Below are positions 5,208 to 36,989 of a stretch of 39,960 bases of DNA, one piece after another; position 1 is the stretch's first letter, and each line of letters opens with the position of its first letter. The position numbers and the translations under genes are program-made. A model generated the notes under the pieces. The model ran no database searches. It worked only from the letters and a program-made list of their open reading frames with translations, and was not told the origin of the DNA. Source of the stretch: a virus. Taxonomy: Duplodnaviria; Caudoviricetes. Location: positions 1 to 39,960 of the IMG/VR virus record IMGVR_UViG_3300008255_000053. One strand, 5' to 3'.

Positions 5208-5543
5208 ATGTTCCAACTAACAGGATACTTCACACGTTTTGGTTCCAAATCTGACGGGTCTGCGTCACTATCATTTAACACACAAGAGTTGAACGGCGAG
5301 GACTTCGCTACACTTAAACAGCACCAAAACCTATTCGGATATATCATGTTCTCTGAAAACAAGTTTACAGACAGCGACCTACCAAAAGAACAAGCCGAAG
5401 ATAAGAATAAGACACCGAGCAAGAGACTACGTTCAGTGCTGTTCATTCTTTGGCAACAAGAAGGTTCCGAAGGTGACTTCGAAGTGTGGTATCGTGACAG
5501 AATGGAGAAACTGATAGACAAGATTAAAGCGAAGTTAGATTAG
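5208..5543 (+). CDS. Hypothetical protein
   Basis: 111 aa; KTPSKRLRSVLF motif. Confidence 0.75.
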   Translation: MFQLTGYFTRFGSKSDGSASLSFNTQELNGEDFATLKQHQNLFGYIMFSENKFTDSDLPKEQAEDKNKTPSKRLRSVLFILWQQEGSEGDFEVWYRDRMEKLIDKIKAKLD

Positions 5544-5560
5544 AAGTAGTATACTTATAT

Positions 5561-5631
5561 AGTCCTCCACAAAGAAAGGAGGTGGTCTAGAATCTAGGGC
5601 GCATGTCTTAACTGATGTGCGCCCTTTATTT
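5561..5631 (+). ncRNA. Candidate small RNA (or 3' UTR element) complementary to the 16S rRNA 3' end
   Basis: TATACT at 5550-5555, AGAAAGGAGGTGGTCTAG at 5573-5590, then a terminator; no properly spaced ORF. Confidence 0.55.
5596..5631 (+). terminator. Intrinsic terminator
   Basis: 12-bp stem AGGGCGCATGTC/GATGTGCGCCCT followed by TTATTT. Confidence 0.8.
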
Positions 5632-5679
5632 ATCCCCATCTATACATGTTGCTTTTTTGTAACCTAGTATAATTAGTAT

Positions 5680-6378
5680 GTGAACGGCAAAGAAAAAAAG
5701 AATGTTAAGTATTGCCAAAAATGTGGTAATACAAACACTAAAGTATTGCACGTAAACTCCCGTACGGTTCTAAAGAGTGGAAATACAAAATTAAGTTACT
5801 TATGTAGGACTTGTAATAACCTTCGAGCGAAAGAATACTATAATAAAAATAAAGACACAAAAAAAATGCTAGAAAAGAAAAGCATGTACGCTCTCAGTAG
5901 AAAAAAAAGATTAAAAGCTCTTAGTTTACTAAAAACCTACATCTCCAAAGGTTTAGTAATTATTCCAAAAATATGTGATGAGTGCGAATCAAGGGGCGTT
6001 CTGAAACCAAATCATATAGACTACAGCGAACCGTTAAAAGTTTCTTGGTTATGTTCTGAATGTTCACAAATATTTACTTTCAGAAACAAAAGAGAGTACA
6101 TTACATGTAAAACATGTAGTTTCAAATACAAGTATACAGATATATGTATGTTCTGTGCGGACGAGAGTAAGAAAATAAAAAAAGACGTACGGGCTAATCG
6201 TGTAAAAGACTTCTTAGACGAGTATATTTTCCATGATGATAGGGATATAGCTTTACTCGTAGCTACATGTTCCAGCACTAAGGGTGTTAAGTCATTTTTT
6301 AAATATCCTTCTCAAGAACTAGAAGATAAGATAGAAGAAATCCACGCACGATTTAAATACTTTATGAAACACAACTAA
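5680..6378 (+). CDS. Multi-Zn-finger protein with a degenerate HNH-like domain
   Basis: Six CxxC pairs; NHIDYSEPLKVSWLCSECS; TATAAT at 5668-5673 just upstream (leaderless). Confidence 0.7.
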   Translation: MNGKEKKNVKYCQKCGNTNTKVLHVNSRTVLKSGNTKLSYLCRTCNNLRAKEYYNKNKDTKKMLEKKSMYALSRKKRLKALSLLKTYISKGLVIIPKICDECESRGVLKPNHIDYSEPLKVSWLCSECSQIFTFRNKREYITCKTCSFKYKYTDICMFCADESKKIKKDVRANRVKDFLDEYIFHDDRDIALLVATCSSTKGVKSFFKYPSQELEDKIEEIHARFKYFMKHN

Positions 6379-25596: not shown

Positions 25597-27156
25597 TTAC
25601 TTCTCTGCATGGTCTTCGTCTTCATTAACTATTGCAACCTCCATTGTCACTAAGTCTGATGTAACAGCAACCGCACTTTCAAGTGCAAGGCGTGTCACCT
25701 TGAATGGGTCGATTATTCCTCCGATAAACATATCTCTTATACGCTTTTCTTTGAAGTCATATCCCCAGTATTTTAAGTTATCAAACTTAGTTGAACTATC
25801 AGTGAATATAGTCTTTCTTGTGAAGATTGTTACTCCAGCATTTAATGCCATTTGTTTTATTGGAGAAAGAAGTGCCCTCCTAATCATTGGCTCGTTTATG
25901 TTTTTTGATACATAGTTCAAAGCACTTCCGCCACCTGGCAATATCCCTTCTTGCAATGCAGCTTGAGTAGCGTTGATACCGTTCTCAAATTTGTACTTCT
26001 TTGCGTTGAAGTCTGTATCAGTGTAAGCACCCACACGAATGACCCCAATTCCCCCTGTAAGCGCCGCTAGACGGTCTTCAAGCATCTTCTTCTCATAATC
26101 ACTGGTTGTGCCTTCTAAGTCGCTCTGAATCGCTTTTATGCGGTCTTTTGGCTCTCCCTTACCTCCTATGATAGTAGTGGTGTCTTTTGTCACGATAACC
26201 TTTTCAGCTCGTCCACATACTTCTTTAGTCTGTGTGTCAAGTTTCATTCCCGTTTCTTCACTGACGACAGTAGCACCTGTAAGAGCTGCCATGTCAAATA
26301 AGAAGTCACGTCCACGGCTTGCTGAATATGGGTTACGAACACAAGCAATGTTAGCAATCTTGTTGACTGCGTTCTGTGCAAGGGTAGCTAGAGCAACACT
26401 TTCAATGTCGTCTGCTACGAATAGGATACTCTTACCTGTACCTATTGAGTTGAGCAAAGACAATACCTGTTCGTTTGTGCTTACTTTACGGTCAATCAGG
26501 ACAATGTATGGGTCTTCAAGCACTGTTTGCTTGTTCTCATGGTCATTGATAAAGAATGGACTGATAAGTCCTTTGTCAAAACGTGCGCCTTTTACTACTT
26601 CCTTGGTGTATCCTAGCTTTGAACCCTTTTCCACAGTTACCACTCCAGTAGCACCTACTTCTTTAATAATTTCTGCAATGAGCTTGGCCACTTCTGGGTC
26701 TAGGCTTGAAATAGCGGCAATCTTTTCAATGTCTTCTTCCTTAACTTCACGCTTGAGCTTCGATAGTTCTGCAATTACTTCTTCTAGCCCTGCTTCAAGG
26801 CGTTCCCGCACTTCACGAATCTTTGAACTGTCCTCTCCGATTTCTTTGAATGCTTCGTTCACGAGTGCTTGAGTCAATACGGTTGTAGTAGCAGTACCAT
26901 CACCACCTTTGCGTGATGTCCTTAGTGCTGCTTGGCGTAGCATCTCTAATCCCATGTTTTCGTATGGGTCTTTGAAGTCTAAGTTGCGTAACACGGTAAC
27001 ACCATCGTCACATAAGACTGGTTCAAGTCCCTTGAACTCAATCAAAGCTGTCATTCCAACTACACCAAGAGTTGGCTTCACGGCTTCTGCTGCGTTGTCA
27101 ATACCAGCTTTTACTTTTAATCGTGCTTTGTGTCCTGTAAGAATTATTTTTGACAT
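25597..27156 (-). CDS. groEL: Chaperonin GroEL-like
   Basis: DDGVTV, GDGTATTTVL, GVVTVE, FDKGLISPFF, PGGG, IIDPFKV. Confidence 0.95.
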   Translation of the reverse strand: MSKIILTGHKARLKVKAGIDNAAEAVKPTLGVVGMTALIEFKGLEPVLCDDGVTVLRNLDFKDPYENMGLEMLRQAALRTSRKGGDGTATTTVLTQALVNEAFKEIGEDSSKIREVRERLEAGLEEVIAELSKLKREVKEEDIEKIAAISSLDPEVAKLIAEIIKEVGATGVVTVEKGSKLGYTKEVVKGARFDKGLISPFFINDHENKQTVLEDPYIVLIDRKVSTNEQVLSLLNSIGTGKSILFVADDIESVALATLAQNAVNKIANIACVRNPYSASRGRDFLFDMAALTGATVVSEETGMKLDTQTKEVCGRAEKVIVTKDTTTIIGGKGEPKDRIKAIQSDLEGTTSDYEKKMLEDRLAALTGGIGVIRVGAYTDTDFNAKKYKFENGINATQAALQEGILPGGGSALNYVSKNINEPMIRRALLSPIKQMALNAGVTIFTRKTIFTDSSTKFDNLKYWGYDFKEKRIRDMFIGGIIDPFKVTRLALESAVAVTSDLVTMEVAIVNEDEDHAEK

Positions 27157-27159
27157 AAC

Positions 27160-27498
27160 TTATTTTCCGTAGTTCTTATTGTTAATATTTTTAATGTTTT
27201 CTTTGTGTAATTTAACTAACTCATTTATTTTTTTGTTTCTTTCGTCTTGTAAAGCTCCCAAGCCTTCTGAAGAAGTAACGACTACTGGTTTATATGCAAA
27301 CGCACCCCATCTTTCCCATTCATATCCAGGAGTAAGAGCTATCAAGTATTCTTCTATAAGTATACTTTCTGACATTGGTTTCTTCTTCATTATAAAAGAA
27401 AATCCTTTTTCAATACCGTCTATTGGGTATTCTTTTACGTTATCATGAGTCTTCATCCACTCCTGTGCGCTTGCCTTATCTATCTTTCCAATCTTCAT
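27160..27498 (-). CDS. Hypothetical protein between groES and groEL
   Basis: 112 aa AT-rich ORF with ATGA overlap. Confidence 0.7.
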   Translation of the reverse strand: MKIGKIDKASAQEWMKTHDNVKEYPIDGIEKGFSFIMKKKPMSESILIEEYLIALTPGYEWERWGAFAYKPVVVTSSEGLGALQDERNKKINELVKLHKENIKNINNKNYGK

Positions 27499-27746
27499 AT
27501 AGTCGCTAATATATCGTCGCCGTTAACAAGTTTGTACAACGTGCCTTCGTGTTTTACTTCGTGTGTGTCAGGAGAATATTTGGCAAAGTATATAGTATCG
27601 CCAACTTTTACATTTGTAATGTCTCCAACAAACTTCACTTCTCCTTTGTAGAGTGAGTCGTCTTGAATCTCTACTGCGGCAAATCCTTCTGTTCGTTCCT
27701 CTTTTTCTACTGGAACTACTGCTACTCTGTTTCCTATTATATTCAT
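27495..27746 (-). CDS. groES: Co-chaperonin GroES-like
   Basis: GNRVAV, GEVKFVG, VKVGDTIYFAKY, DDILA. Confidence 0.9.
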   Translation of the reverse strand: MNIIGNRVAVVPVEKEERTEGFAAVEIQDDSLYKGEVKFVGDITNVKVGDTIYFAKYSPDTHEVKHEGTLYKLVNGDDILATI

Positions 27747-36405: not shown

Positions 36406-36573
36406 ACACCAATTATACATCTTATCTTCATGTTTGTTTTTGTTGAGTGGGGATAACTAAGTATCTAGGTACACGACCTCTATATCCCTGAAGGCGTGGG
36501 GTCTTATCCTCTGTGTGGTCTGCCTTGCTACTCATACCTGTATCCCTGCTTCTACGGTACTTATAGCTTAGTC

Positions 36574-36646
36574 TAATTATGAACAAGTCAGGTCGCCCGT
36601 TGTCAGGTCGTAGGACAGAGCGGGCAATATCACTTGTTCACAATTA
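36574..36646 (-). ncRNA. Long hairpin element preceded by boxA-like GGACTTAACA
   Basis: 15-bp outer stem with inner GCCCG/CGGGC and TGTC/GACA. Confidence 0.5.
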
Positions 36647-36744
36647 TGTTAAGTCCAAGTTTTTTAGGAGATGTTCTTATAGCTCCTAAGGCATACGTTG
36701 TAATGTGTACCCTGAGTACTGAATAGGATTGTTTCTAGTAATTT

Positions 36745-36797
36745 ATTAGAGGAGGTACGAACGGTTGCCCAATCACCTCCCCTCTAATGCAACCGTT
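36745..36797 (-). ncRNA. Pseudoknot or switch containing an extended SD sequence
   Basis: AACGGUUGC/GCAACCGUU interleaved with AUUAGAGG..AGGU/ACCUCCUCUAAU. Confidence 0.6.
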
Positions 36798-36806
36798 ACT
36801 GTTTAA

Positions 36807-36989
36807 CTAATCAACGCACTTGTCGTTAATTTTAACTGCGCAAGTTTCCGACGTTCCATATAACCCTTTGTGTTCACGTGATTTTTCTCTAGCCGAATTT
36901 ACACTTGCAAGCACTACTGAGGTGAGTATTCCAACTATTGCAATACACACAAGTAATTCAATGAGGGTGAACCCTTTGTTTCCGTTCAT
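36807..36989 (-). CDS. Miniature type IV prepilin-like protein
   Basis: [10 protein letters not shown] prepilin cleavage-methylation motif, hydrophobic helix, C-terminal Cys pair. Confidence 0.85.

What the first reader, a model, noticed from the sequence alone, without database searches (positions are those of the whole stretch)
5550..5631. ORF-less ~70-nt RNA with 18-nt complementarity to the 16S rRNA 3' tail (anti-SD decoy candidate)
Seen: TATACT, then a CCTCC/GGAGG hairpin containing AGAAAGGAGGTGGTCTAG (5573-5590), then a 12-bp terminator, with no start codon at SD spacing. Established: a common 16S 3' end is CUGGAUCACCUCCUUUCU. The element pairs with it over 18 contiguous nt (2 G-U), far longer than a normal SD. 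The phage's own genes mostly lack SD sites (AT-rich leaders, TAGTATG coupling). Inference: the RNA could bind 30S subunits, either masking the anti-SD to favour SD-less phage mRNAs or protecting the RNA. No good -35 is visible, so it may be a 3' UTR element of the upstream operon.
Basis: partly seen in the sequence, partly recalled or inferred. Interest (0 to 1): 0.8.

Follow-up and report, generated by a model that had tools for sequence, protein, structure and literature searches.

The report
Phage mini-RNA matching ribosome's 16S tail
A groundwater phage carries a roughly 70-base non-coding unit, also found in otherwise unrelated phages, whose core is complementary to the whole free tail of 16S ribosomal RNA; it is likely transcribed and predicted to grip the small ribosomal subunit without making a protein, though whether it traps ribosomes is untested.

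Summary
The element is real and conserved. Bases 5573-5590 complement the 16S 3' tail (two G-U pairs), the best such site in the genome. Against Patescibacteria tails the pairing is 17 nt, and 15-16 nt outside helix 45, not 18. The same layout (-10 box, masked long SD, AUCU, terminator) is the only DNA shared with two phages that share no protein with this one. The closest known kind is the rre/CC2171 extended-SD small mRNAs, which bind 30S; this is a version without the peptide frame. The idea that it favours SD-less phage mRNAs is not supported: 5 of 7 terminator-closed copies lie in SD-using phages. Best reading: a non-selective 30S-docking RNA (0.45). Host, transcription and binding are not shown. 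The scan has noted start-less super-SD RNAs in other phages before (unchecked AI notes).

The parts
5550..5555 (+). -10-like box TATACT (preceded by TAG, as at the next promoter-like site 5665); no -35
   Evidence: aligned with TG-n-TATAAT boxes of L197 and L248
5561..5631 (+). predicted ~70-nt RNA; start inferred from -10 spacing, end from terminator
   Evidence: inference; fold z -4.3, mostly from the terminator
5564..5582 (+). 5-bp CCUCC/GGAGG hairpin that masks the SD core and leaves the first five tail-pairing bases (AGAAA) in the loop
   Evidence: opening cost 9.8 kcal/mol
5573..5590 (+). extended SD complementary to the 16S 3' tail (15-17 nt, two G-U against the commonest Patescibacteria tail)
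   Evidence: 5570-5587 invariant in 3 of 3 aligned copies
5592..5597 (+). AUC near-cognate codon 9 nt after GGAGG, followed by UAG; AUCUA conserved
   Evidence: AUCU enrichment
5596..5633 (+). intrinsic-terminator-like hairpin (12 pairs) and T-rich tail; sequence differs between copies while the hairpin is kept

Best explanation
A conserved ~70-base phage unit (-10 box, masked 15-17-base complement of the 16S tail, AUC, terminator) that is likely transcribed as a small RNA and predicted to dock on 30S subunits without productive initiation, which would hold them idle regardless of which mRNAs compete. Shown in the sequence or by calls: the complementarity, the conserved layout in phages that share no protein, the absence of a conserved reading frame, and enrichment of AUCU at start-codon spacing. 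Inferred: (1) transcription from the -10 box, plus read-through from the upstream operon in this phage; (2) the looped-out AGAAA seeds pairing with the extreme 16S 3' end and opens the hairpin, net about -16 kcal/mol; (3) AUC falls at the P site, where IF3 rejects it, and the terminator stem starting 5-7 nt after the A of AUC hinders entry of the RNA into the mRNA channel, so the complex is stable but unproductive; (4) this lowers or buffers free 30S during infection, which is easier in cells with few ribosomes. My odds: real selected element 0.9; transcribed 0.75; binds 30S if transcribed 0.85; non-selective trapping is its purpose about 0.45 overall.
For: Only blastn match between this 40-kb genome and G001 or G002, which share 0 of 65 window proteins. 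Terminator sequences differ but all form hairpins. L636 was found without AUCU in the pattern and has -10, long SD, AUCU and terminator. In an unselected sample a terminator follows the long SD in 2 of 8 AUCU cases, 0 of 49 canonical-start cases and 0 of 21 others. The best Rfam match aligns to the SD head and terminator of CC2171, with 101 middle positions missing. rreB binds 30S, needs its unpaired 5' SD bases, and stays in the ribosome fraction without a start codon (PMC5711450). AUC is an IF3-discriminated start (PMC5499595). CPR cells are said to have few ribosomes (PMC12641178, passage).
Against: 20-fold overproduction of rreB did not slow growth, and its authors doubt that ribosome recruitment is its main role (PMC5711450). 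A phage needs ribosomes, so a non-selective trap has no clear benefit. Only three close copies were found, two of them from related phages. The role of AUCU is open: a stop follows AUC in only 6 of 23 viral copies, about chance, and in some copies AUCU may instead pair back with AGA (flank covariation p 0.009-0.017; none in the three close copies). The host is not identified.
Confidence: 0.45

Rival explanations
1. Ribosome-sensing attenuator: a 30S subunit that binds the nascent RNA at SD and AUC covers the 5' arm of the terminator and lets polymerase read through, tying downstream transcription to free 30S or IF3 levels.
For: The terminator stem starts 5-7 nt after the A of AUC in the window, L197 and L248, within a ribosome footprint. 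In L636 what reads like a tRNA gene start follows the terminator (by eye). AUC is IF3-sensitive (PMC5499595).
Against: The downstream gene here has its own -10 at 5665. In L186 the next ORF is on the opposite strand. Downstream genes are unrelated between copies.
Confidence: 0.15
2. Cis-acting stabiliser (STAB-SD-like): a parked 30S protects the upstream operon mRNA, or the short hairpin RNA itself, from nucleases.
For: No terminator lies between the upstream operon and the element. Strong SDs stabilise transcripts without start codons (PMC7509114, passage). The start-less rreB mutant has a half-life of 37 min against 10 min (PMC5711450). Several copies sit right at the end of an ORF.
Against: Known cases protect RNA downstream of the SD (recalled), and here only the terminator lies downstream. 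In G001 the unit begins about 200 nt after the upstream ORF, behind its own extended -10.
Confidence: 0.15
3. One reading: the RNA masks only the anti-SD, so that SD-led host mRNAs lose out to SD-less phage mRNAs.
For: This phage is SD-poor (4 of 60), as are G004, G005, G007, G008, G010 and G417, which carry long-SD AUCU elements.
Against: 5 of 7 terminator-closed copies whose phage was measured lie in SD-using phages: G001 23 of 37, G002 5 of 8, G003 11 of 23, G006 10 of 19, G416 26 of 41. Many Patescibacteria stretches are SD-poor themselves, 0 of 17 up to 13 of 22.
Confidence: 0.12
4. Remnant or captured fragment: the head and terminator of a host rre-type small mRNA, or a dead ribosome-binding site, passed between phages without a present function.
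For: The layout equals CC2171 minus its middle. The element is rare: no copy next to a homologue of the upstream gene in L022.
Against: The SD core is invariant while the terminator sequence has turned over with pairing kept. No copy of the full layout was found among the 13 hits in 401 Patescibacteria genomes.
Confidence: 0.08

Closest known systems
rreB / rreR extended-SD small mRNAs of alpha-proteobacteria (Hahn et al., PMC5711450) and Rfam RF01867 CC2171
   Same: 16-17-nt complement of the 16S tail near the 5' end of a small promoter-to-terminator transcript; first five pairing bases unpaired, the rest in a hairpin; weak start codon at the end of the SD. The CC2171 consensus begins with such an SD plus GUG; that CC2171 is an rre gene is my inference.
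   Different: Phage-borne, about 70 nt rather than 160-165; no conserved 14-18-codon frame; AUC rather than GUG; two G-U pairs; 23.4 bits against a gathering score of 75.
Rfam RF02471 Ms_IGR-5 (Actinobacteria sRNA)
   Same: Members fetched here carry the same long SD with GGUGGUC, followed by non-canonical starts (L373 scores 50.4 bits against 45).
   Different: Chromosomal, about 180 nt, with a conserved ~14-codon frame; the window has no hit to this model.
STAB-SD and SP82-type start-less SD stabilisers
   Same: Strong SD without a canonical start, thought to park a 30S subunit (PMC7509114 passage; details recalled).
   Different: Those lie in 5' UTRs ahead of the protected gene; this one is longer and is closed by a terminator.
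Extended SD of rpsU (bS21) in Bacteroidota (PMC9976891)
   Same: An exceptionally strong SD in an SD-poor genome, used as a probe of ribosome state.
   Different: That SD leads a real ORF in an autoregulatory loop; here no ORF follows, and no bS21 gene was among the Pfam or PHROG hits of 63 ORFs.

Membership tests
rre / CC2171 extended-SD small mRNAs | At least 16 nt complementary to the 16S 3' end | tested here: met
   17 nt with two G-U against the tail in 17 of 30 Patescibacteria 16S genes; not perfect Watson-Crick as in rreB; host unknown
rre / CC2171 extended-SD small mRNAs | 5' bases of the SD unpaired, rest hidden in a hairpin | tested here: met
   Predicted fold: AGAAA in the loop, GGAGG paired
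rre / CC2171 extended-SD small mRNAs | GUG (or AUG) start at the end of the SD and a conserved 14-18-codon ORF | tested here: not met
   AUC-UAG in the window; in L197 and L248 the AUC frame runs into the terminator hairpin with unrelated sequence
rre / CC2171 extended-SD small mRNAs | Rfam RF01867 score at or above gathering (75) | tested here: not met
   23.4 bits, E 0.004 on 401 bases; not recovered on a 111-base stretch
rre / CC2171 extended-SD small mRNAs | Expressed small transcript that co-sediments with 30S | not testable with these tools
   Needs RNA from infected cells or in vitro binding
Ms_IGR-5 (RF02471) | Covariance-model match and ~14-codon frame | tested here: not met
   No hit; no frame
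STAB-SD stabilisers | Start-less SD in a 5' UTR ahead of the protected ORF | tested here: not met
   A terminator follows at once and the next gene has its own -10
STAB-SD stabilisers | SD-dependent gain in mRNA half-life | not testable with these tools
   Needs decay measurements
Type I toxin mRNA with sequestered SD | Small toxin ORF behind the hidden SD | tested here: not met
   No ORF of 25 aa or more on the + strand between 5543 and 5680; definition recalled

The most novel reading that the evidence does not exclude
A widespread, undescribed class of phage RNA-only ribosome traps: promoter, full-length 16S-tail complement, IF3-rejected AUC and terminator in 70 bases, passed between unrelated phages, which titrates the few 30S subunits of ultra-small hosts or captures a chosen 30S state during infection.
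Probability: 0.25. Interest if true: 0.85.

Novelty: new variant of a known kind. Interest (0 to 1): 0.58.

Why it matters
I found no paper describing a phage small RNA aimed at the 16S tail. rre-type RNAs have been shown to bind 30S, but their function is unknown, and the peptide complicates the question. A natural 70-base version that has lost the peptide frame yet keeps the long SD, a near-cognate codon and a terminator suggests that ribosome binding itself is what is selected. It is small enough to test directly in vitro, and would be a minimal RNA handle on bacterial 30S subunits.

Tried and rejected
Rfam at gathering on the whole window: 0 hits. INPHARED blastn: 6 weak partial hits, none covering the unit. 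Pattern scans that gave no new close copy: 6 loci, 1 = L001; 11 loci, 1 = L001; 122 loci of about 2000; 64 of 97 distinct with ATG, the rest mostly GTG/TTG; 41 metagenome loci; L178 matches the window, L163 = L001's contig. The one locus with a homologue of the upstream 111-aa gene (L022) lacks the element downstream. Patescibacteria chromosomes: 13 of 401 hold the long-SD pattern against 14 matches of the reversed control, none with the full layout. Host search: TerL only 24-25% to Vibrio phages; upstream-protein profile 1 weak hit in 251 Patescibacteria genomes; cluster look-up and Atlas gave no host. Expression: no RNA holder listed; only the possible source run covers the element. Start-stop as a general rule: rejected, 6 of 23. 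Antisense partner in the window: no 30-mer stands out, best -27.8, graded down to -24. Ordinary RBS for ATG 5603: 20 nt from GGAGG and followed by TCT TAA. The AUCU:16S 790-loop pairing idea (recalled sequence, 4 nt) was not tested. No covariance model was built; three close copies are too few.

Full report
Setting. The window is a whole 39,960-base phage record with portal, terminase, capsid, GroEL/GroES, holin and a pilin-like gene. The element lies between the stop of a 111-aa gene of unknown function (5208-5543) and a 232-aa endonuclease-like gene (5680-6378). The run that holds the stretch is an aquifer metagenome and may be its source. A Patescibacteria host is my inference from habitat, SD-poor genes and the pilin-like gene; searches did not establish it.

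The 18-mer is the only match to the 16S complement within 3 mismatches (2 of 100 shuffles reach one) and the best tail duplex in the genome (-27.1 against -23.8 and -18.4 kcal/mol). The test is after the fact, so conservation carries more weight than this number. SD 4-mers precede 4 of 60 genes against 12% background. Of 151 Patescibacteria genomes 86 gave a 16S end. The outer pairs fall in helix 45, so 15-16 nt is the realistic duplex. It is worth -26.0 kcal/mol, or -16.2 after opening the RNA's own structure. One CPR 16S (L533) has a tail that pairs perfectly with GGUGGUC.

Conservation. A pattern for hairpin plus SD gave 4 viral loci. One, L001 (= L197, record G001), repeats the whole layout, including parts the pattern did not ask for: an extended -10, AUAGU, CAA, AUCUA and a different terminator. 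Two others were ordinary SDs with ATG; the fourth had neither layout. A pattern with AUCU gave 64 loci, among them a third close copy, L248 (G002). In the three-way alignment 5570-5587 and AUCUA are invariant, while terminators differ in sequence and still fold. G001 and G002 are related to each other (8 of 9 proteins), but share 0 of 65 window proteins, and the element is the only blastn match between the window and either. So there are two independent lineages, not three. G007 shares six proteins with this phage and also has a long SD plus AUCU, but inside a longer non-coding stretch without the -10 or T tail. L241, L249, L186 and L636 show a looser version of the layout; L636 was found with a pattern that did not contain AUCU.

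The AUC. In an unselected sample of long SDs (119 of about 440 loci), AUCU begins 1-5 nt after the motif in 11 of 86 distinct loci against 1.9% background (p 7e-7). After dropping a family in which the motif is coding sequence, it is 8 of 78 (p about 1e-4). A terminator follows in 2 of 8 AUCU loci, 0 of 49 canonical-start loci and 0 of 21 others, and in 7 of 24 loci selected for AUCU. AUC lies 6-10 nt after GGAGG in the 13 copies folded, which is start-codon spacing, and AUC is a non-canonical start rejected by IF3 (PMC5499595, passages). Against over-reading: a stop follows AUC in only 6 of 23 viral copies, about chance. In some copies the flanks covary so that UCU pairs back with AGA (p 0.009-0.017), though not in the three close copies and not in 21 chromosomal ones. 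AUCU may therefore be a codon, a structural arm, or both.

Known relatives. The best sub-threshold Rfam hit is CC2171: the element aligns to its SD head and its terminator, and 101 model positions in between are absent (23.4 bits, gathering 75; not recovered on a shorter stretch). That head has the design of rreB of Bradyrhizobium (PMC5711450; I read parts 1-4 of 6, introduction to discussion; its supplement, which may list further long-SD loci, was not read). rreB has a 17-nt SD whose first five bases are unpaired and needed for ribosome association. It co-sediments with 30S, is barely translated, and stays in the ribosome fraction with a longer half-life when GUG becomes UAG. Overproducing it 20-fold did not affect growth. 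The scan of GTDB genomes gave 96 loci, mostly Actinobacteria with a short frame behind non-canonical starts; one of 20 loci tested passes the Ms_IGR-5 threshold and two hit it below threshold. Three were Patescibacteria, none with the full layout. The window element works like these RNAs in design but fails membership: no peptide frame, and scores below threshold.

Mechanism. Best reading (0.45): a small RNA that seeds on the 16S end through its looped-out AGAAA, forms a 15-16-bp duplex, and sits with AUC at the P site and a stable hairpin 5-7 nt further on, giving a stable unproductive 30S complex. Only the anatomy is shown; transcription, binding and purpose are inferred. Of seven terminator-closed copies whose phage was measured, five lie in SD-using phages (G001 23 of 37, G002 5 of 8, G003 11 of 23, G006 10 of 19, G416 26 of 41) and two in SD-poor ones (window 5 of 54, G004 3 of 37). 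Twenty 20-kb stretches from 18 Patescibacteria genomes range from 0 of 17 to 13 of 22 SD-led genes, so an SD-poor phage may well have an SD-poor host. These counts use the first ATG of each ORF and are rough. An attenuator (0.15) and a cis stabiliser (0.15) remain open, since the same 30S binding would serve them.

Literature and earlier notes. Searches listed no phage RNA aimed at the 16S tail; most subscription journals are not in the library. Also seen: PMC9297842 (passages: anti-SD found in 48% of Parcubacteria; bS21 often absent), PMC10582724 (passages: Era binds this tail, most CPR lack Era, so blocking Era is an unlikely purpose), PMC7509114, PMC12641178, PMC8079986 and 10.1101/2022.01.24.477521 (passages), PMC9976891 (abstract and outline). 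Earlier notes of this scan describe start-less super-SD RNAs in other phages; none matched this sequence. They are unchecked leads, not support.

Verdict. Real and conserved; a new, phage-borne, peptide-less variant of the extended-SD small RNAs; function untested. Interest 0.58.

Noticed in passing
window 38598-38395 (-): TG-n-TATACT -10 followed by a ~190-nt ORF-less stretch that folds into two long irregular hairpins (z -8.3, 0 of 200 shuffles). No Rfam hit; not found in 5 other phage records. Strong candidate for a second non-coding RNA.
   Followed up: partly
window 36812-36745 (-): Second-best 16S-tail duplex in the window (-23.8), right after the pilin-like ORF: an SD-like GGAGGUGAU inside two interleaved inverted repeats that could form a switch or pseudoknot; 36420-36800 is ORF-poor.
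   Followed up: partly
L369, L371, L373, L408 and about 70 more; L148, L156, L166, L176, L181: Actinobacterial Ms_IGR-5-like RNAs carry a 16-17-nt SD and a conserved ~14-codon frame with AUC/AUA/CUG/UUG starts; similar units appear in Planctomycetes-labelled genomes (L391, L403, L421). They look like rre genes outside alpha-proteobacteria.
   Followed up: partly
L196, L209, L216, L219, L233: Phage family with long SD, then AUCUCCC and interleaved repeats that suggest an H-type pseudoknot, often right at an upstream stop codon (by eye).
   Followed up: no
L418 and L426, about 160 nt downstream of the long SD: Two Patescibacteria chromosomes (Saccharibacteria, Staskawiczbacteria) have long SD plus AUCU ahead of similar 76-80-aa ORFs.
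   Followed up: no
L005, just upstream of its element: A second -10-like box followed by a small CUCC/GGAG hairpin and T-rich tail, in tandem with the element.
   Followed up: no
window 5630, 35491, 36456, 38616, 39615: TTATCC(A/C)CA boxes, resembling DnaA boxes (recalled); those at 5630, 36456 and 38616 lie shortly before -10-like sites.
   Followed up: no
window 25597-27746 (-) and 36807-36989 (-): The phage encodes GroEL, GroES and a 60-aa pilin-like protein with an N-methylation motif.
   Followed up: no
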